Assembly (NCBI GenBank): GCA_017411745.1
Contig: JAFQPM010000016.1
Span: 19,120 to 83,119 of the forward strand
Origin: Clostridia bacterium
GTDB taxonomy: Bacteria; Bacillota; Clostridia; Oscillospirales; CAG-272
Direction of reading: 5' to 3'
Length of the DNA stretch: 64,000 nt
Shown: piece by piece, positions 42,653 through 50,175 of the stretch
Numbering within the stretch: position 1 is the stretch's first letter
Layout: every line of letters starts with the position of its first letter
The notes under the pieces: model-generated
The model's database searches: none
What the model saw: only the letters and a program-made list of their open reading frames with translations
What the model was told of the DNA's origin: nothing
Translations under genes and position numbers: made by a program

Positions 42653-42952
42653 TCATTTGAAAAATCTTCCCTTTCTGCCCGTTTTGCAGAAGCATTCGCA
42701 GTTTGACAGCTCGTTTTGCGGTATTTTGACGAGAATGGCATCTTCTCCGATACATTCGATCTTACACCAAGGGATCATCAGCTCGTCTTTTTTACCAAAC
42801 AACGAAAATCCGTTGTTTTTCGGTACTGTGAACGACAGTATTCGTCCATCGTCGATATCTATTTCAAACTCGCAGGGATAACCGAGCCGTTCCCCTCCGC
42901 ATAGGTTTATCACCTCTAAATCCCTTAACTCGTCAGTACTCATCTTTCGCAT
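42653..42952 (-). CDS. YlmC/YmxH family sporulation protein (PRC-barrel)
   Basis: LRDLEVINLCGGERLGYPCEFEIDIDDGRILSFTVP is typical of YlmC/YmxH. The ATG at 42952 follows GGAGGTG. Confidence 0.85.
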   Translation of the reverse strand: MRKMSTDELRDLEVINLCGGERLGYPCEFEIDIDDGRILSFTVPKNNGFSLFGKKDELMIPWCKIECIGEDAILVKIPQNELSNCECFCKTGRKGRFFK

Positions 42953-42961
42953 ACAAACACC

Positions 42962-43000
42962 TCCAAAAAATATCAAGACTGCCCAAAAAGACAGTCTTGA
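42962..43000 (-). terminator. Intrinsic terminator ending the long ruvC-to-ATPase-like operon
   Basis: Minus strand: tcaagactg tctttttggg cagtcttga, followed by tatttttt. Confidence 0.75.
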
Positions 43001-43018
43001 TAAAATATATGCTTATTT

Positions 43019-45778
43019 TCAGCGTTTATTTCTCTTTTTTGAAGTCAGAAACAGTGTAAGTATCGCTATAGCGTAAAGCACGATATATGCAGGGATCACG
43101 AAATATTCGCGAGAACCCAGACCGTGAGGATAAAACTCCGAGCTGAAGACATTTTGTGTCGAAAAAGCACATATCGCTATCGCAACTGTATACGCTATTA
43201 TGACCTTGAGCCAGCAGTTGCTTCTTCCCTCACCCTTTTTAGTAAATTTTCGATTTATCATAAAGACCTCTACGAACACCGTAAGCAGCAAGCATATAAA
43301 TATTGGAAGCTTGTACGTTGTATTCGTTCCGAAAATTCCTATATGATCAAATATCTTTACAAGAATGGCGATCACAGCGGCGACAATCGCTCGGGAGATA
43401 ATAGACGGGATGCTACGCTTGACAAGCTCGATCGGATATCTTGTGAAATCTCTCGACTGGGCAAGCACTTTATCGGTCTGCTCGGCGCGGCTGAATACTG
43501 TGACGGAAAGGAAAGCAAACATTGCGGAGAGCGCTACCGTCTGCAACGGATCGAGCAGAATATTGCCCGTAAGCACTGACATTACAGTGAATGATACAAG
43601 ACCACTCATAAGCAGCACAAAGAGCAACAATGCTTGTGCAAATGAAACGTAGGCTTTTCTCGAGATTTTAATAGCTTTGAACGCTGCCGTGGCTCCTCCG
43701 CCGTTTTCATTAGCACGTCGGACTATGACCTTTGAGAGCAGACGAGTTTGCTGGGAGGCACGCTCGTTGGTATCTCTGCCCTCTGGGGCAACTCTTTCGT
43801 AAATCGATTCGCGATATTTGTCGCTCGAATATTCGACTGTGTCACAGCTTATTGCAATATCTGCGCGAGCCAATATTTCGTTATATTCGTTTGCAACGCC
43901 GTATGCGGCAATTTTTGCGCCTCGTTTTCTCATTTCTAAAATGAGCTCCGAATACTCGGGCGCGCTGAAGCCTACGTAAGCATCGTATCTGCCGAGTCCT
44001 TCGATCACGCTCCTGCCGTTTTTCTTGAATTCCGAAGCAAATGCCGTATTGCCCGACAAAATTCCTTTTTCGATGCAATTTGATACGAGATTTGAGTTGA
44101 TATCGTTCTCGGCGGAAAGCAAAACGGTAGGTTTTATGCCAAACCTTTTCATTTCCGCGACTGTGGAAGCAAGCGCCTTGTCCTCAGGCTGATAAAGAGT
44201 TATAACACCCTCAAGCACTGTGTTCCTGTCTTTTTCGGAGATGCAATAAAGACATCTGAGTCCGTTTTCTGCGGCGGCTTGGGTAAATTCCTTGATCTCG
44301 TCTATATCTCGATCGTTGATAGCTCTTGTATGCGCTCCGTCTTGGATCAGATCGCAAAAAGTAAGTATCTTGGGATCGGTAACAAGTGAGGTTCTGAATA
44401 TTTCTTTATCGGTCTCGGCACAGGCATATTCAAAGCCGTTTTTGGCGTCCTTTGCGAAATAAAGCGACTTTATCGCTAATGATGCGCCGCTTATATCGAA
44501 TTTACTCACTCGGAGATGCGTATAAAGCGCTTCAAGACAACCGTCTGCGCTCAGATCGTTCTCAATTCCGCCCTCCCTTTGCGCTTTTACATAGGTATGT
44601 ACCAAGGACAGTATTCTCAATCCTTCATTCGTTGTCGTATCGAGATTTTCAATCACTCCGTTTGCCGTATAGGTTGCGGAAAGCGAAAAGCTTCCGCCGC
44701 AAAGTCCTGCCGAGCCGACGAAAATAAAATCGGAGACTGTGGCGAGCGTATCCAAGGCTTTAACGTTTCGAATAGATGCGCGCGAGGCGTTTTTATATTT
44801 ATCTCGTTTTTTTTGTGCAAGTCTCTTTACATACGATGAAAATACGTATCTTGATCCACCACTTAAAAGCTCTGTTGTGACAAGGAAAACTGCCGAAAGC
44901 AGCATTGTAAAATTACAAACGAATATCTCCTTGCCGCGCAAAGTCATAAGTCCTATCAAAGAAAGGATAAGAAGACCTGAGGCACAAACAAATGATATCT
45001 TGTAAAGCGTCGGCTTGATCGATTTAGCCCCCATAGGCTCGGAGTCCTTACCGCCAAGCTCTCCGTTGCGGACACGTTTGTGGAGATAGACGTTTTCGCC
45101 CGTAGCAACCACAAGCGCTGTCGCCTGACCGCTGATTACTGCGCTTCCCGCATACAGCATATTTGCCGCATCGGGAACCGTGCAGTTGTTTTCGTCACAT
45201 ACAGCTTCGAAATGCTTGTCTGCTCGGCGCTTGATGATGCCGTCATTACTTATGATGAGCTCATCAACCGTCAAGCCCTCACTTCTTATAAGTCGTGCAT
45301 CACAAGTAAGCAGGTCTCCGCTTTTTATTAGTATGACGTCGCCCTCAACGAGATTTCTGCCGTCTGTATAAAAGATATTGCCGCCACGCTTTACCTTGAC
45401 CATTGGGGAGGCGTATTCGCCCATTGATCCAAATGTTTTCTGCGCGTTCAGCACAAGAATTCCGCCAAAAGCGGTCGCCGCAAGCGTTACGGCAAACACA
45501 GACCAACCGAGCACTGTCTTTCCAAACAATGCCGTCAACAGTGAGGTTATCAAAAGTAACAGAGCGTACGGCGAGCCTGCAAACGTCAGCAGCGACGTCC
45601 AAGTGGGGCGTCTTCGGCTAACGAAAAGAGAGCTGTTTTCGTGCTTCTTATCTTTTTCAAGTCTTACTCTCGCTTCTCTTGCGGGAAGTCCATCAGAAAG
45701 GTTTGTTCCCAGCTTTTTTTCAAGCGTTGAAAGATCGGGAATATGCGGATTTACCATATTCTCTTTCTCCTTTGTCAA
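43019..45778 (-). CDS. P-type ATPase homologue with degenerate catalytic motifs (probable pseudo-enzyme)
   Basis: A Cation_ATPase_N-like start (LSDGLPAREARVRLEK) and an A-domain block (VKVKRGGNIF...LVEGDVILIKSGDLLTCDARLI...VDE) are present, with about 10 TM segments. The TGES, DKTGT, TGD and GDGxND positions read ISNDG, VGSAG, SAE and AYGVANEYN. Confidence 0.8.
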   Translation of the reverse strand: MTKEKENMVNPHIPDLSTLEKKLGTNLSDGLPAREARVRLEKDKKHENSSLFVSRRRPTWTSLLTFAGSPYALLLLITSLLTALFGKTVLGWSVFAVTLAATAFGGILVLNAQKTFGSMGEYASPMVKVKRGGNIFYTDGRNLVEGDVILIKSGDLLTCDARLIRSEGLTVDELIISNDGIIKRRADKHFEAVCDENNCTVPDAANMLYAGSAVISGQATALVVATGENVYLHKRVRNGELGGKDSEPMGAKSIKPTLYKISFVCASGLLILSLIGLMTLRGKEIFVCNFTMLLSAVFLVTTELLSGGSRYVFSSYVKRLAQKKRDKYKNASRASIRNVKALDTLATVSDFIFVGSAGLCGGSFSLSATYTANGVIENLDTTTNEGLRILSLVHTYVKAQREGGIENDLSADGCLEALYTHLRVSKFDISGASLAIKSLYFAKDAKNGFEYACAETDKEIFRTSLVTDPKILTFCDLIQDGAHTRAINDRDIDEIKEFTQAAAENGLRCLYCISEKDRNTVLEGVITLYQPEDKALASTVAEMKRFGIKPTVLLSAENDINSNLVSNCIEKGILSGNTAFASEFKKNGRSVIEGLGRYDAYVGFSAPEYSELILEMRKRGAKIAAYGVANEYNEILARADIAISCDTVEYSSDKYRESIYERVAPEGRDTNERASQQTRLLSKVIVRRANENGGGATAAFKAIKISRKAYVSFAQALLLFVLLMSGLVSFTVMSVLTGNILLDPLQTVALSAMFAFLSVTVFSRAEQTDKVLAQSRDFTRYPIELVKRSIPSIISRAIVAAVIAILVKIFDHIGIFGTNTTYKLPIFICLLLTVFVEVFMINRKFTKKGEGRSNCWLKVIIAYTVAIAICAFSTQNVFSSEFYPHGLGSREYFVIPAYIVLYAIAILTLFLTSKKRNKR

Positions 45779-45787
45779 AATAAGATT

Positions 45788-48118
45788 TTACAAGCATTTT
45801 ACGGTGATCTCGCCGTTTTCTGTCGCAAGAAGCGCCTTCGTATAGCTTCCCGTATAGTCCGATATGAGCTGTTCTGCCAGCTTATCCTCAATATTCTTTT
45901 GTATATATCTGCGCATATTTCTTGCTCCGTATTTTTCGGAGAACGAGCCCTGCGCCACGGTTTTCGCAACGTCGTCGCTGTATTTGAGCGATATTCCCTT
46001 TTCTGCGAGCACGTCGGCAAGCTGGGAGAGCATTATCTTTGCGATCTCGCCGAAATCTTCAACGGTGAGGCTGCGGAAGGTAATTATTTCGTCGACTCTG
46101 TTTATAAACTCGGGGCGAAGGAAGGTAGAAAGCGCCTTTTCGGTCTTGTCGGCATCGAGCGTTCTCGAATCTGCTGCAAAGCCCACTACTCCGCTACGGT
46201 TTTCCGAGCCTGCATTAGTTGTCATTATGATGATCGCGTTTTCGAAGTTTACCGTCTTGCCGTGAGCGTCGGTGATACGTCCGTCGTCAAGTATCTGCAG
46301 AAGTATATTGAGAACGTCAGGATGTGCTTTTTCGATCTCGTCAAAGAGGACGACCGAATAGGGTCTGCGGCGTATTTTTTCGGTGAGCTGTCCCGCATCG
46401 TCGTAGCCTACGTATCCTGGAGGCGAGCCGATTATGCGCGATACCGAATGCTTCTCCATAAATTCGGACATATCAAGTCTTATAAGCGTTTCGGGGGAGT
46501 TAAAAAGATCGGCGGCGAGCGTTTTTACAAGCTCGGTCTTACCTACTCCCGTGGGTCCTGCGAATATAAAGGAGACGGGCTTTCTCTTGTACGAAATACC
46601 TGCTCTGTTTCTCTTTATAGCTCTTGCCACGGCATCGACTGCTACGTCCTGACCGACAAGCTTCTTCTTAAGTCTGTCGGCAAGGCTGTCAATTCTCGCG
46701 TATTCGTTTTCGGTGATCGAGGTTGCCGGAATTCCCGTCCAGAGCTCGATGACGTTTGCAAGATGCTCCTCGGTCAATATTACCTTTTCGCACTCTGCGG
46801 TCAATTCGTCAAGACGGTTGGAGAGTCGCATTTCCTCGGACTGAATTTTAGTGATCTCCTCGTATTTTTTCTGGATCTCCTTGTCGTCCGTGGTCATATA
46901 TGCTTCAAGTCCCTCTCTGTCGGATTTGAGAGTCAAAAGCTTATCTCTGATCTCCTGCGACTCGTTAAGCTCGGCAGAAGAAAGAGAGAGCTTGGACGCC
47001 GCCTCGTCAAGAAGGTCGATCGCCTTATCGGGCAGATATCTGTCGGTAATATAGCGCTCGGAGAGGACTACAGCCTTATTGAGTATGACCTCGGGAATTC
47101 TGATTTTATGGAACTCCTCATAATAGTGGCTGATACCGCGAAGCATTTCTACCGCTTCTGCCACAGAAGGCTCGTTTACAGTTACGGGCTGGAAACGTCG
47201 CTCGAGAGCCGAGTCCTTTTCGATATATTTTCTGTATTCGTTGAGCGTAGTCGCGCCGATTATTCTGACCTCCCCGCGAGAAAGTGCAGGCTTCAAAATA
47301 TTTGCCGCGTTAACGCTTCCCTCTGCATCTCCCGTGCCGACTATGTTATGGACCTCGTCGATAACGAGAATAGCTCTGCCGTGCTCCTTGACCTCTGCCA
47401 AGAGTCCAAGAATTCTTGACTCGAACTGTCCGCGGAACTGCGTGCCCGCGACAAGCGCAGTGAGATCAACAAGAAAGATCTCCTTGTCCTTAAGCTTATA
47501 GGGCACGTTGCCGTCGGCAATTCGGATGGCAAGTCCTTCTGCGATCGCGGTTTTACCTACTCCGGGCTCACCTATAAGACAGGGATTGTTCTTCTGACGG
47601 CGGCAGAGAGTCTGAATGACTCTGTCGGTCTCGCGGTCGCGTCCTACTATTCGGTCAAGCTTACCCTCTCTTGCGCTCTGCGTGAGATTCTTACAGTAAG
47701 TCGTGAGGAATTTGTAGGTCTTGCCCTGCTGTTTATTTCCCTTTGGAGCTTCTTTTTTATTTTTGCTCGGATTTACGGGAACTATATTGCCGCCCTCGTC
47801 CTTCTTGGGCAGATTTTCAGATGCAGACTTCATCATCTCGGCAAGTCCGCTATCCTTGAAGAGCTTGGGGAGATCTATTGCGGGAGCGCCGCCGTCCTCG
47901 CCCTCGGGCATCATTTCGGCAAGCTCGTCCTCCATATCCTCGAGCTGATCGGGCGAGATACCCATTTTGTTATAGATATCTCCCATCATATTTTCAATAG
48001 GAAGTCCGAGGTCCTTTGCACATTTGATGCAAAGTCCCTGCGACGCCTTCTCTCCGTTTTCTACTTTAGTTACGAAAATTACAGCCACTCTCTTGTGGCA
48101 ATTTGAACATAGTATCAT
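45788..48118 (-). CDS. clpC: ClpC/ClpA-type double-AAA+ unfoldase with a zinc-ribbon N-domain in place of Clp_N repeats
   Basis: Walker A motifs GEPGVGKT (D1) and GPTGVGKT (D2), a coiled-coil M-domain, and a ClpP-docking-type VGF loop ([10 protein letters not shown]). The N-terminus reads CSNC-x21-CIKC followed by an acidic/Lys-rich linker. Confidence 0.9.
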
Positions 48119-48141
48119 TATTTGATTTCACCCTTTGTCAA

Positions 48142-48849
48142 TCAGATCAATTTTCTTATAAATTCAAAGATCCGCAGGTCATAAATGAATTTGAACACGT
48201 GCGAATCCGAATAAATCTTCATAATTTCTTCGCTGTTTTTTATTGCAGATATAAATTCAAGTATCGAATAGATCGCCGTAGAAATAAACGCAACGCCAAG
48301 AACGCCAAGCGCAAGTCCGAGCGTTATGCCGAGAAGCTTATCTATTTTTGTTATTATCGGGATCTTTATCTTGCTGAATCCCTTTATAACTATACTCAAA
48401 ACTATATACGCCACTACGAATATAAGGACGTAAGCGATTATTGCGGAAAGCGTGCGGGATATTGGTCCCGAGATAACGTCAGACATCTCTCTGATAACCG
48501 TCTCGCTTCCCTGTGCGCTGCCGAACCTTGCCTCCAAAGCCTCAACGTCCGCACCGAAAAGTTTTACAACCTTTAAAAATCCGTCGGGTATATTGGCGAA
48601 AAACTCCGTTAAGCTCTTTCCACCATCAAAATAGCCGTAGATCTTATTATAAACGTGATCGGAAACTGCGTTTCCTACAAATCCGTTTGCAAGTAAAATC
48701 CCAACGGGGCTTCCAAGCGCAAGGGAGACAAGAAACGCGATTATAAATTTACCCATGCCGAGAATTGAACATACCAATCCCTTGATTCCAAATCTTGCTG
48801 TCGAAAACACGATGATAGCCACTAATAAAACGTCAATGAAAATTATCAT
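48142..48849 (-). CDS. cvpA: CvpA family membrane protein
   Basis: 235 aa with four to five TM helices. The N-terminus MIIFIDVLLVAIIVFSTARFGIKGLV is typical of the CvpA/colicin V production family. Confidence 0.78.
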   Translation of the reverse strand: MIIFIDVLLVAIIVFSTARFGIKGLVCSILGMGKFIIAFLVSLALGSPVGILLANGFVGNAVSDHVYNKIYGYFDGGKSLTEFFANIPDGFLKVVKLFGADVEALEARFGSAQGSETVIREMSDVISGPISRTLSAIIAYVLIFVVAYIVLSIVIKGFSKIKIPIITKIDKLLGITLGLALGVLGVAFISTAIYSILEFISAIKNSEEIMKIYSDSHVFKFIYDLRIFEFIRKLI

Positions 48850-48879
48850 AACTATCTCCTATTCTCTACCCGCGCCAAT

Positions 48880-50175
48880 TCAATCAAAGCTTACGTAATA
48901 TGCAAGGCTTGGAGTACATGCCAAAAGCTCGCCGCCCGAAAGCAACGTCAAGCACGCATCCTCCTCTAAAAATGCTACCGTTGATGTGTGTCCAAAGGTA
49001 GAGTCCACCTTGATTATTTTATCGTCGCAAAGCAGGTAAATATGATCTTTATTCATTTTTACGTCCGAAACGTTGCCGTCGATCTTGATAGTCAGCTTCA
49101 GATCTCCGTTGTCATCAAATACCACCAGAAGCTCGCTGGCATTTGCTTCGCTTTCATCAAACAAAAGAGCTATGCCTCCGTTTGCGTAAGACATGTGCGA
49201 AAGCTTGTCAGGATAGACGAAAATGTTTTTGCGGTTGCCGTTAAGATCATACACGGACAGGCTTTCTGAGCAAACGAGAGCTATTCGGTCGTCCGATAAA
49301 AATGCGATCCTGTACGGAAGAACGTCGGTTATTGTTGTCGATGATTTAAGTCTGCCCTTTTTTGTTTCGAGAACGCTTATAGTAACCTTGCTCTCTCCCC
49401 CCTCGGCGTCAAGTGACGCTATGGCGGCATATCTGCCGTTCGCTGAAAGCTCGGCGGATATTACAAGGTCATTTTTTAAATACTCTGTCTCAAGCTTAAA
49501 TTTGTTATTATAAATTCGCACCGCGGAGCGATATTCCGCAGATCTGGTCACGATAAGAAAGCTTCCGTTATCCGACATACTCGCTGAGCTGATTGGATAA
49601 TCGAGCGTTTCGGAATAAACGCAGATAAAGGAATTATATACCGCAAAGGAATTGCTTCCCTGATCGTAGATAAGGACATAAGAATCCGAGGCGCATATTT
49701 GGGGATTAGTATATTCAGAGCCTACGGTCATAGTCACTCTGCCCGTTGAGGTAAAGAGCTTTATCTCGCTGTCGCCTGCGACGGCAAGTCCGTTCTTGAA
49801 GGAAGCAAACGTCTGGTTTCCCACCGACTGCGAATAGCTGAGCGTTTCGGGTCTTGTTTCGCTGAAAGTGCTTATGTAAGAGATGTCCTTGAACATATAA
49901 TATACGTTCGCATACGACATTATGCTGCTTCCGAACAAAAGCACCGCCGCCAAGAATACACAAAGCACCGCGAGAACGATCACCCTCGTAATTCCAAAGC
50001 CGAATGCTATCTTTGCTTCCGCCGGACTTTCGGCAGAATCGTATCCTGCTAAAGCTTTCTGTTTTTTTACAATTTTTCTTGGAAGACGAGTTATCTGATG
50101 CTTTTCTTCGTGTGAACGGAAAAACAAAATGACTTTACCGAGAAACGATATTTCTTTATCTTTTTTCTTTTTCAT
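48880..50175 (-). CDS. Membrane-anchored beta-propeller-like protein (DUF5711-like, tentative)
   Basis: A Lys-rich cytoplasmic N-terminus and one TM helix (VIVLAVLCVFLAAVLLF) are followed by a repetitive beta-strand-rich ectodomain. The family name is from memory only. Confidence 0.6.
   Translation of the reverse strand: MKKKKDKEISFLGKVILFFRSHEEKHQITRLPRKIVKKQKALAGYDSAESPAEAKIAFGFGITRVIVLAVLCVFLAAVLLFGSSIMSYANVYYMFKDISYISTFSETRPETLSYSQSVGNQTFASFKNGLAVAGDSEIKLFTSTGRVTMTVGSEYTNPQICASDSYVLIYDQGSNSFAVYNSFICVYSETLDYPISSASMSDNGSFLIVTRSAEYRSAVRIYNNKFKLETEYLKNDLVISAELSANGRYAAIASLDAEGGESKVTISVLETKKGRLKSSTTITDVLPYRIAFLSDDRIALVCSESLSVYDLNGNRKNIFVYPDKLSHMSYANGGIALLFDESEANASELLVVFDDNGDLKLTIKIDGNVSDVKMNKDHIYLLCDDKIIKVDSTFGHTSTVAFLEEDACLTLLSGGELLACTPSLAYYVSFD

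What the first reader, a model, noticed from the sequence alone, without database searches (positions are those of the whole stretch)
43019..45778. P-type ATPase homologue with every catalytic signature mutated (dead pump)
Seen in sequence: the 919-aa protein keeps the family architecture.
- A Cation_ATPase_N-like start (LSDGLPAREARVRLEK).
- An actuator-domain block (VKVKRGGNIFYTDGRNLVEGDVILIKSGDLLTCDARLIRSEGLTVDE … LYAGSAVISGQATALVVATGENV).
- About 10 TM helices.

The invariant motifs are all replaced.
- TGES reads ISNDG.
- The M4 PEGLP motif reads TELLS.
- The phosphorylation site (I/V)CSDKTGTLT reads IFVGSAGLCG, with no Asp.
- TGD reads SAE.
- GDGxNDxP reads AYGVANEYN.

Established knowledge: the Asp of DKTGT is obligatory for the P-type catalytic cycle.

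Inference: the protein cannot be an ATP-driven pump. Its intact ORF and operon position argue that it is retained for another role, such as scaffold, sensor, channel or membrane adaptor. It is not a decaying pseudogene.
Basis: partly seen in the sequence, partly recalled or inferred. Interest (0 to 1): 0.65.

Follow-up and report, generated by a model that had tools for sequence, protein, structure and literature searches.

The report
Dead calcium-pump homologue behind ClpE
This gene encodes a full-length look-alike of a bacterial calcium pump that has lost every residue needed to use ATP, yet uncultured gut Clostridia keep it under strong selection directly behind a ClpE protein-unfolding motor gene, so it is a repurposed "pseudo-pump" that databases wrongly label as an active transporter.

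Summary
The gene is on the minus strand. Its real start is the ATG at 45757, giving 912 aa.

- **Fold kept.** The AlphaFold2 model (pLDDT 88) matches MgtA, SPCA1, LMCA1 and Na,K-ATPase over its full length.
- **Chemistry lost.** Three alignment methods agree that TGES, DKTGT, KGAPE, DPPR, TGD, the HAD lysine and GDGxND are all replaced. Only the M4 glutamate survives.
- **Not a pseudogene.** dN/dS is about 0.10 in every domain. There are 86 intact relatives at 34-90% identity, and the genome has four genuine P-type ATPases besides.
- **Single clade.** Dead pumps separate from live pumps on one branch (support 100). The clade spans at least three GTDB families of one order, and 51 of 51 copies examined sit directly after a zinc-ribbon ClpE gene.
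- **New element.** Its own family shares a roughly 30-aa P-domain insertion, which is the most constrained segment.
- **Neighbour corrected.** A strong terminator separates the gene from ylmC, so the conserved partner is clpE.

My best reading is a non-catalytic membrane partner of ClpE; this is inferred, not shown. This scan has already reported the same family at least eight times on other genomes.

The parts
43019..45757 (-). Pseudo-P-type ATPase CDS: 912 aa plus stop, starting at ATG 45757. The listed ORF runs to a TTG at 45778.
   Evidence: PF00122 E = 7.9e-14 and no PF00702. AF2 pLDDT 88.1, pTM 0.86. Full-length Foldseek hits to MgtA, SPCA1, LMCA1 and Na,K-ATPase. dN/dS about 0.10.
45767..45770 (-). 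GGAG ribosome-binding site 9 nt before the ATG, inside the 30-nt gap after the clpE stop codon.
   Evidence: sequence read directly.
45260..45400 (-). Actuator (A) domain core, res 120-166. It is the best conserved part across the whole dead-pump clade; R124, G139-D140, G147-D148 and D153 are invariant.
45239..45253 (-). Position of the TGES dephosphorylation loop. It reads ISNDG.
44861..44878 (-). M4 position of PEGLP. It reads TTELLS. The Glu is kept (78% of the family); the helix-breaking Pro and Gly are lost.
44696..44725 (-). Position of the phosphorylation site (I/V)CSDKTGTLT. It reads IFVGSAGLCG, with no Asp.
44411..44425 (-). N-domain position of KGAPE (nucleotide binding). It reads ACAET, which is nearly invariant in the close family.
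   Evidence: The placement against KGAPE is my reading of the alignment and is less secure than the others.
44105..44119 (-). Position of TGD (HAD motif II). It reads LSAEN.
43880..43906 (-). Position of GDGxNDxP (HAD motif IV, Mg2+ ligands). It reads AYGVANEYN.
43742..43846 (-). Lineage-specific insertion of about 30 aa in the P domain (CDTVEYSSDKYRESIYERVAPEGRDTNERASQQTR). It is absent from canonical pumps and from the f8/f17 dead pumps, and it is the most constrained segment.
   Evidence: Alignment. dN/dS 0.02-0.05 in 4 of 5 close pairs. A probe built on this region hits 185 of 388 high-quality genomes of the family.
43505..43546 (-). M6 position of the Ca2+-ligand motif N-x-x-T-D. It reads LQTVALSAMFAFLS, with no Asn, Thr or Asp.
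45788..48118 (-). clpE-type class I Hsp100 unfoldase, 776 aa. It has an N-terminal CxxC...CxxC zinc ribbon, two AAA+ modules and a VGF loop. It lies immediately upstream and is the conserved partner gene.
   Evidence: Orthologue found in 201 of 201 genomes of the order. Synteny.
42971..43002 (-). Intrinsic terminator: a 14-bp perfect stem plus a U tract, 17 nt after the pseudo-pump stop codon.
   Evidence: Fold dG = -21.9 kcal/mol, z = -5.85. Sequence.
42653..42951 (-). ylmC/ymxH-family PRC-barrel gene. Its real start is ATG 42951, after the terminator, so it is a separate unit.

Best explanation
The gene encodes a non-catalytic descendant of a P2A (PMR1/LMCA1/YloB-type) Ca2+-ATPase.

Shown:
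- It keeps the whole pump fold: ten TM helices and the A, P and N domains.
- It has lost the phospho-aspartate, the other HAD motifs, the TGES loop, the nucleotide-binding lysine motif and all Ca2+ ligands except the M4 Glu. It therefore cannot run the E1-E2 phosphoenzyme cycle.
- It is maintained by purifying selection.
- It is placed directly after a zinc-ribbon ClpE-type AAA+ unfoldase gene throughout a clade spanning several GTDB families.
- Co-transcription with clpE is inferred from the short gap and the terminator, not measured.

Inferred mechanism: the protein works as a membrane-embedded scaffold whose large cytoplasmic headpiece engages ClpE (with or without ClpP). It would tether or direct the unfoldase at the membrane, or be regulated by it. 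The lineage-specific, highly constrained, charged insertion sits where the catalytic pocket used to be and is a candidate interaction surface.

Confidence by layer:
- About 0.9 that it is a selected, non-pumping pseudo-ATPase.
- About 0.4 that its role is a physical or functional partnership with ClpE. The confidence value given is for this full statement.
For: **Loss of chemistry.** No DKTG, TGES, GD[GA]xND or PEGL in this protein or in 86 relatives. Motif columns were checked by MAFFT, by phmmer against LMCA1 and by a profile search against PDB. There is no PF00702 hit, and no NCBIfam cut-off is reached.

**Fold kept.** AF2 gives pLDDT 88.1 and pTM 0.86. Foldseek gives full-length matches: MgtA 8uy7 at E = 7e-33 and LMCA1 9evc at TM 0.65/0.68.

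**Selection.** dN/dS is 0.09-0.11 at dS 0.5-1.4. ClpE gives 0.02-0.03 in the same genome pairs. Every domain lies at 0.05-0.25, and the insertion at 0.02-0.05.

**Paralogy.** The genome has four other P-type ATPases with DKTG.

**Single clade.** 51 dead pumps and 22 live pumps are split by one branch with SH-aLRT 100. Less-diverged members match the PMR1-type model TIGR01522 over their full length.

**ClpE linkage.**
- 37 of 37 motif-less copies fetched in family f1 lie directly downstream of clpE. The only two copies not linked to clpE are canonical pumps.
- The same arrangement is seen in families f8 and f17.
- The estimated gap has a median of 44 nt and a range of 4-113 in 30 loci. It is 30 nt here, with its own RBS.
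- A terminator follows the pump gene directly.
Against: - No direct evidence of any ClpE contact.
- ClpE is universal in the order (201 of 201 genomes), but many lineages lack the pump, and unrelated genes sit downstream of clpE there. ClpE therefore does not need it.
- The ClpE N-linker motif tracks phylogeny, not pump presence.
- Residues conserved across the whole clade are mostly ancestral fold residues, so no clearly new functional site is shared by all clades.
- The protein evolves 3-4 times faster than ClpE.
- clpE is only 23 nt after cvpA, so the pair may be the tail of a longer housekeeping operon. Adjacency alone is then weaker evidence.
Confidence: 0.4

Rival explanations
1. It is a stand-alone structural or regulatory membrane protein, for example in membrane organisation or envelope stress. 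The adjacency to clpE reflects only co-regulation or inherited gene order, not a physical partnership.
For: ClpE exists without it in many lineages, and the pump has been lost in some genera of the same family. In L127, rpsB follows clpE directly. No feature of ClpE correlates with pump presence. The genes sit at the end of a long housekeeping gene string running ecf-truA-DUF5711-cvpA-clpE.
Against: Gene order is otherwise fluid, yet the pair is kept across three GTDB families while the pump diverges to below 25% identity. None of the 51 dead pumps examined was found away from clpE.
Confidence: 0.27
2. It is a passive cation or proton conduit, or an ion sensor (a 'transceptor'). It would use the remaining transmembrane acidic residue or residues, with the headpiece acting as a gate or signalling domain.
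For: The M4 Glu is kept in 78% of the close family. Many members of the wider f1 clade keep both the M4 Glu and an M6 Asp, in a GLxxDF context. The TM3-4 and TM5-6 segments are under strong constraint, with dN/dS 0.05-0.15.
Against: In this protein and its close family, the M5 Glu/Asn and the M6 Asn/Thr/Asp ligands are all replaced by hydrophobic or small residues. The M4 Pro-Glu-Gly-Leu-Pro unwinding motif is also gone. The retained Glu is not invariant. There is no evidence of a pore.
Confidence: 0.15
3. It has a sporulation-linked role together with the downstream YlmC/YmxH PRC-barrel protein.
For: ylmC follows the gene in most loci of the window's own family. YlmC matches TIGR02888. The terminator U tract abuts the ylmC RBS, so read-through is conceivable.
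Against: A strong terminator lies between the two genes. No YlmC or RpsB homologue was found in the stretches fetched downstream of the f8 and f17 dead pumps. Several f1 loci also lack ylmC there.
Confidence: 0.08
4. It is still an ATP-driven transporter that uses non-canonical chemistry.
For: The full fold is kept, and the N and P domains are under purifying selection.
Against: All four HAD motifs, TGES and the KGAPE lysine are absent. The residues that replace them differ between subclades (VGSAG, PKKGG, CGKDT and others), so no alternative catalytic constellation is conserved. It is established knowledge that the phospho-Asp is obligatory for P-type ATPases and HAD phosphotransferases.
Confidence: 0.03
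5. It is a decaying pseudogene or an assembly artefact.
For: None beyond the loss of the motifs.
Against: Intact frames of about 900 aa were found in every relative fetched, with no internal stops. dN/dS is about 0.1. The AF2 fold is predicted with high confidence.
Confidence: 0.01

Closest known systems
Bacterial and eukaryotic P2A Ca2+-ATPases: Listeria LMCA1 (PDB 9euq, 6zhf, 9evc), PMR1/SPCA1 (8iwp, 7yai), SERCA, B. subtilis YloB type
   Same: Same overall architecture and fold. LMCA1 is the best sequence hit (E = 1e-17 for the single sequence, 1e-35 for the family profile). Foldseek TM is 0.60-0.68 over about 960 aligned columns. Core A-domain residues, the M4 Glu and many structural glycines are shared. 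Less-diverged clade members match the PMR1-type model TIGR01522 end to end.
   Different: There is no phospho-Asp, TGES, TGD, HAD Lys, GDGxND or KGAPE. Of the Ca2+ ligands, only the M4 Glu remains. A 30-aa insertion sits in the P domain. Identity is 13-16%. No family cut-off is reached: 57-70 bits against 700-800 required.
MgtA (P3B Mg2+-ATPase, PDB 8uy7)
   Same: It is the top Foldseek hit (E = 7e-33, TM 0.63), with comparable length and domain order.
   Different: MgtA is catalytically intact. The sequence profile and the ancestry of less-diverged relatives point to P2A rather than P3B.
Degenerate P4-ATPase modules of alveolate guanylate-cyclase chimeras (P4GC-beta, Cryptosporidium, gregarines, Tetrahymena; PMC13466520)
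   Same: This is the only published precedent I found for P-type ATPase modules in which the DKTGT Asp and the A-domain Glu are altered while the fold is retained, with a non-pumping role suspected.
   Different: Those modules are eukaryotic, of P4 (flippase) origin, and covalently fused to the effector enzyme. Loss of activity there is itself unproven. Here the protein is free-standing, bacterial, of P2A origin, and genetically linked to an AAA+ unfoldase rather than fused to a cyclase.
ClpE-linked 'dead pump' family reported earlier by this scan in other genomes (e1-2344167, e1-3876472 and others)
   Same: The same description applies: a full-length Ca-pump look-alike without catalytic motifs, under selection, directly after a ClpE-type gene in uncultured gut Clostridia. 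My own tree and synteny data place this gene in that clade.
   Different: These are AI notes, not publications. This report adds the P-domain insertion and its constraint, the terminator that uncouples ylmC, a prevalence estimate within the family, and the presence of intermediates in two other GTDB families.

Membership tests
Catalytic P-type ATPase (HAD-IC, TIGR01494 / PF00702 + PF00122) | Phosphorylated Asp in DKTGT (HAD motif I) | tested here: not met
   The position reads VGSAG. No DKTG occurs anywhere in the protein or in 86 relatives.
Catalytic P-type ATPase (HAD-IC, TIGR01494 / PF00702 + PF00122) | TGES (or a variant) dephosphorylation loop in the A domain | tested here: not met
   The position reads SNDG and varies across the family.
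Catalytic P-type ATPase (HAD-IC, TIGR01494 / PF00702 + PF00122) | HAD motifs II-IV: TGD, the conserved Lys, and GDGxNDxP | tested here: not met
   They read SAE, Tyr and YGVANEYN. There is no PF00702 hit.
Catalytic P-type ATPase (HAD-IC, TIGR01494 / PF00702 + PF00122) | Nucleotide-binding N domain with KGAPE | tested here: not met
   There is no PF13246 hit. The region reads ACAET. The alignment here is less certain than for the other motifs.
Catalytic P-type ATPase (HAD-IC, TIGR01494 / PF00702 + PF00122) | Overall fold: ten TM helices plus A, P and N domains | tested here: met
   AF2 pLDDT 88 and pTM 0.86. Full-length Foldseek matches with probability 1.00. PF00122 scores 52 bits against a cut-off of 28.1.
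Catalytic P-type ATPase (HAD-IC, TIGR01494 / PF00702 + PF00122) | ATP hydrolysis with an acyl-phosphate intermediate | not testable with these tools
   This needs purified protein and a [gamma-32P]ATP assay.
P2A Ca2+-ATPase (TIGR01116 / TIGR01522) | Curated whole-protein score cut-off | tested here: not met
   70.2 bits against 703.4, and 57 bits against 798.3.
P2A Ca2+-ATPase (TIGR01116 / TIGR01522) | Ca2+ ligands in M4 (PEGLP Glu), M5 (Asn, Glu) and M6 (Asn, Thr, Asp) | tested here: not met
   Only the M4 Glu is kept. The M5 Glu position is Leu. M6 reads SAMFAF.
ClpE-linked dead-pump clade (defined in this scan, unpublished) | Lies directly downstream of a zinc-ribbon ClpE gene on the same strand | tested here: met
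   A 30-nt gap here. The same arrangement holds in 37 of 37 f1 loci and in 14 loci of f8 and f17.
ClpE-linked dead-pump clade (defined in this scan, unpublished) | Groups with other motif-less pumps to the exclusion of canonical pumps | tested here: met
   One branch with SH-aLRT 100 separates 51 dead from 22 live sequences. The rooting is assumed to lie among the live pumps.
Pseudogene | Disrupted frame or neutral evolution (dN/dS near 1) | tested here: not met
   The frames are intact and dN/dS is about 0.10.

The most novel reading that the evidence does not exclude
The pseudo-pump and ClpE together form a new kind of membrane-protein handling machine. The P-type transmembrane domain has lost its own ATP engine. 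It would provide a lateral cleft or docking site in the membrane, as P5A-ATPases do for mis-inserted helices. The ClpE hexamer, recruited to the remodelled P-domain surface (the constrained 30-aa insertion), would supply the pulling force to extract or unfold membrane proteins for ClpP. In short, the energy module has been swapped from phosphoenzyme chemistry to an AAA+ motor.
Probability: 0.1. Interest if true: 0.9.

Novelty: new variant of a known kind. Interest (0 to 1): 0.6.

Why it matters
**Pseudoenzyme biology.** P-type ATPases are a textbook family defined by one invariant aspartate. A whole bacterial clade has discarded the chemistry but kept the 900-aa fold under selection for a long evolutionary time. 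As far as my literature searches show, no free-standing pseudo-P-type ATPase has been described. The only published precedents I found are degenerate P4 modules fused to apicomplexan and ciliate guanylate cyclases.

**A testable partner.** The constant pairing with ClpE points to an undescribed membrane partner for a Clp unfoldase, and that can be tested directly.

**Annotation.** Public records call these proteins 'cation-transporting' or 'calcium-translocating P-type ATPase, PMCA-type'. This inflates predicted ion-transport capacity in gut Clostridia metagenomes and should be corrected.

Tried and rejected
- **CtsR operator upstream of clpE.** There is no match to the heptad repeat anywhere in the window, even with 2 mismatches. 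Heat-shock regulation by CtsR is therefore unsupported here.
- **A ClpE feature specific to pump-bearing genomes.** The N-linker motif (G-x-A/T-P-x-x-D versus DGKTATFPF) follows phylogeny, not pump presence.
- **A substitute membrane partner downstream of clpE in genomes without the pump.** The genes there are unrelated and varied: rpsB, a Cof-type HAD, an ArsC/Spx-like gene, an ACT-domain gene and others.
- **Extra domains in the longer homologues (1020-1231 aa).** They add only acidic, low-complexity C-terminal tails.
- **Order-wide search with the close-family profile at E <= 1e-50.** It found only the window's own genome. The threshold was too strict for this fast-evolving family, and looser or synteny-based searches were needed.
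- **Literature.** Searches for 'P-type ATPase' with 'pseudoenzyme', for 'pseudo-pump' and similar terms, and for FUPA gave no relevant bacterial report. Two searches combining ClpE with P-type ATPase timed out, so absence from the literature is not proven.
- **TGEN at res 219.** This is the ATGENV strand downstream in the A domain, not the TGES loop.
Full report
**1. What is at the coordinates**

The ORF at 43019..45778 is real but lies on the minus strand. Counted from the TTG it is 919 codons. The ATG at 45757 is preceded by aaaGGAGaaagagaat, and all close homologues are 912 aa. The protein is therefore 912 aa.

The gene starts 30 nt after the stop codon of a 776-aa Clp/Hsp100 gene (45788-48118). 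Seventeen nucleotides after its own stop codon comes a perfect 14-bp hairpin with a U tract (42971-43002). The hairpin folds at dG = -21.9 kcal/mol with z = -5.85 against shuffles.

The ylmC-family gene begins only after that hairpin, at ATG 42951. The local unit is therefore clpE plus this gene, and ylmC is not part of it. The clpE start is only 23 nt from the end of cvpA, so transcription may enter from the upstream ecf-truA-DUF5711-cvpA string. This layout is inferred from sequence; no transcripts were measured.

**2. The motif losses are real**

Family scans:
- Pfam finds only E1-E2_ATPase (PF00122, E = 7.9e-14). Cation_ATPase_N is sub-threshold. There is no hydrolase (PF00702), no N-domain (PF13246) and no C-terminal (PF00689) match.
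- NCBIfam Ca-, Mg-, H- and Na/K-ATPase models are hit at 14-70 bits against cut-offs of 500-950.

Three independent alignments put the canonical motifs at the same positions. These are phmmer against Listeria LMCA1, MAFFT with 16-22 canonical pumps, and a profile of 84 family members against all PDB sequences. In the profile search LMCA1 scores E = 1e-35, and a second aligned stretch covers DPPR to GDGxND.

| Canonical motif | Reads here | Residues |
|---|---|---|
| TGES | ISNDG | 169-173 |
| PEGLP | TTELLS | 294-299 |
| ICSDKTGTLT | IFVGSAGLCG | 345-354 |
| KGAPE | ACAET | 445-449 |
| DPPR | YQPED | 522-526 |
| TGD | LSAEN | 547-551 |
| HAD motif-III Lys | Tyr | within 594-602 |
| GDGxNDxP | AYGVANEYN | 618-626 |

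In the membrane, the M5 Glu position is Leu and the M6 N-x-x-T-D motif reads SAMFAF. Only the M4 Glu survives, in 78% of the family. No DKTG string exists anywhere in the protein.

**3. The fold is intact**

AlphaFold2 with the 84-sequence alignment gives mean pLDDT 88.1 and pTM 0.86, with no disordered segment. The model has ten TM helices and A, P and N domains.

Foldseek against the PDB returns only P2/P3-type ATPases, aligned over about 960 columns at 13-16% identity. Examples are MgtA 8uy7 (E = 7e-33), SPCA1, LMCA1 9evc (TM 0.65/0.68) and Na,K-ATPase. E1-state structures score higher (TM 0.60-0.65) than E2-state structures (0.47-0.55). Because this rests on a prediction, I give it little weight.

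**4. It is selected, not decaying**

- The protein database holds 86 cluster representatives at 90% down to 34% identity. 84 of them are full-length at about 895-930 aa (two are shorter), and all lack the motifs.
- Against five close relatives (dS 0.5-1.4), dN/dS is 0.09-0.11. In the same genome pairs ClpE gives 0.02-0.03 and YlmC 0.01-0.07.
- Every domain is constrained, at 0.05-0.25, including the 'useless' N and P domains.
- The genome (1.84 Mb, 97% complete) carries four other P-type ATPases with DKTG, so this is a diverged paralogue and not the cell's pump.

**5. Distribution and the ClpE link**

Within the window's own GTDB family (f1):
- I fetched 39 loci. All 37 motif-less copies lie directly downstream of the clpE orthologue. 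Most are then followed by ylmC and rpsB.
- The only two copies not linked to clpE are canonical pumps with all motifs.
- The estimated clpE-to-pump gap has a median of 44 nt and a range of 4-113 in 30 loci.
- In the same loci ClpE stays 57-97% identical and RpsB 79-100% identical, while the pseudo-pump falls to 21-30% identity. It evolves fast but is never broken.

Across the order:
- The ClpE orthologue is universal, found in 201 of 201 genomes.
- A motif-less pump follows it in two further families, f8 and f17 (8 partial loci; six full-length proteins of 855-1088 aa).
- It does not follow ClpE in f25, f15 or f2, nor in some f1 genera. In those genomes unrelated genes sit downstream of clpE.

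Ancestry and naming:
- The f8 and f17 proteins are less degraded. They still match PF13246, PF00689 and PF00690. They align end to end with the PMR1-type Ca-ATPase model TIGR01522 at 143-197 bits, against a cut-off of 798. This points to a P2A Ca2+ pump ancestor.
- In some f8 members the D-K of DKTGT persists (CDKxxAF), while in their close relatives the Asp is G, E or C. The residue is therefore not under selection.
- A maximum-likelihood tree of 73 sequences separates 51 dead from 22 live pumps on a single branch with SH-aLRT 100. This is compatible with one origin if the root lies among the live pumps.
- All named members are uncultured gut or rumen MAGs: 'Clostridia', 'Oscillospiraceae', 'Eubacteriales' and 'Ruminococcus sp. 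CAG:382'. They are annotated as cation- or calcium-translocating ATPases.

**6. A new, constrained element**

All f1 dead pumps share an insertion of about 30 aa in the P domain. It sits between the equivalents of ADIGxAMG and GTDVAKEA, at res 638-672: CDTVEYSSDKYRESIYERVAPEGRDTNERASQQTR. They also share a short insertion ending in an invariant GG(G). Neither element is present in canonical pumps or in the f8 and f17 dead pumps.

The insertion is the most constrained segment, with dN/dS 0.02-0.05 in 4 of 5 pairs. A 96-position profile of this region detects one copy each in 185 of 388 high-quality genomes of the family. It hits 48 of 76 genera and 16 of 16 genomes of the window's own genus. 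It detects none in 18 genomes of a genus that has only canonical pumps, which serves as a specificity control.

Across the whole clade the best conserved part is the A domain. The invariant residues are mostly ancestral fold residues. This fits a scaffold role rather than a new enzyme.

**7. Mechanism**

Shown: the phosphoenzyme cycle is impossible, the fold is conserved under selection, and the gene is placed directly behind clpE throughout a deep clade.

Inferred: the protein is a membrane-embedded, non-catalytic partner of the ClpE unfoldase, acting as a tether, adaptor or regulated client. The remodelled P-domain surface is the candidate contact. I give this about 0.4.

The rivals, with my estimates:
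- A stand-alone membrane protein whose linkage to clpE is only regulatory (0.27).
- A passive ion path or sensor that uses the residual M4 Glu (0.15). Many f1 relatives also keep an M6 Asp, although this protein does not.
- A ylmC-linked sporulation role (0.08), weakened by the terminator and by the lack of that linkage outside f1.
- Non-canonical ATPase chemistry (0.03).
- A pseudogene (0.01).

**8. Novelty and context**

I found no paper describing a free-standing bacterial pseudo-P-type ATPase. Two further searches timed out. The nearest published parallel is the degenerate P4-ATPase module of some alveolate guanylate-cyclase chimeras (PMC13466520).

Inside this scan the same family has already been reported at least eight times on other genomes, with the same reading. 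I had recorded my own reading before seeing those notes, and I re-derived the evidence independently.

New in this report:
- the P-domain insertion and its constraint
- the terminator that uncouples ylmC
- the prevalence estimate within the family
- the less-degraded intermediates in two other GTDB families
- the negative checks on ClpE features and on CtsR

Noticed in passing
window 45788-48118 (-): The upstream Clp ATPase is ClpE-like. It has an N-terminal CxxC-x21-CxxC zinc ribbon instead of Clp_N repeats, followed by an acidic and then a Lys-rich linker, two AAA+ modules and a VGF (ClpP-loop-like) tripeptide. An orthologue is present in 201 of 201 sampled genomes of the order. The genome also has an 870-aa ClpB/ClpC-type protein and ClpX.
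   Followed up: partly
window 42949-43002 (-): The U tract of the terminator after the pseudo-pump runs straight into the ylmC ribosome-binding site (UUUUUUGGAGGUGUUUGUAUG). ylmC has almost no room for its own promoter outside the pseudo-pump coding region. It may depend on read-through or on an internal, possibly sporulation-sigma, promoter.
   Followed up: no
window 48119-48141 and 48142-50175 (-): clpE starts 23 nt after a CvpA-family gene (PF02674). That gene follows a DUF5711 gene and truA and ecfT at gaps of 4-30 nt. The clpE-pseudo-pump pair may therefore be the tail of a long housekeeping operon.
   Followed up: no
L041 (G628), L042 (G444), L030 (G331), L160 (G170): Some dead-pump homologues are 1020-1231 aa. 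After TM10 they carry long acidic or Lys-rich low-complexity C-terminal tails and no extra globular domain.
   Followed up: partly
P0138, P0002, P0085, P0094, P0167 (public records): Motif-less members are annotated in public databases as 'calcium-translocating P-type ATPase PMCA-type' or 'cation-transporting P-type ATPase'. These are systematic mis-annotations.
   Followed up: yes
L127 (G195, same GTDB family): In this genus rpsB follows clpE directly. Both the pseudo-pump and ylmC are missing, which suggests secondary loss of the two genes together in some lineages.
   Followed up: no
f1 relatives such as L026, L027, L029, L032, L041, L042: Many dead pumps of the wider family keep both a membrane Glu in M4 and an Asp in M6 (GLxxDF). 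The window's own subfamily has lost the M6 Asp. A residual ion site may persist in part of the clade.
   Followed up: partly
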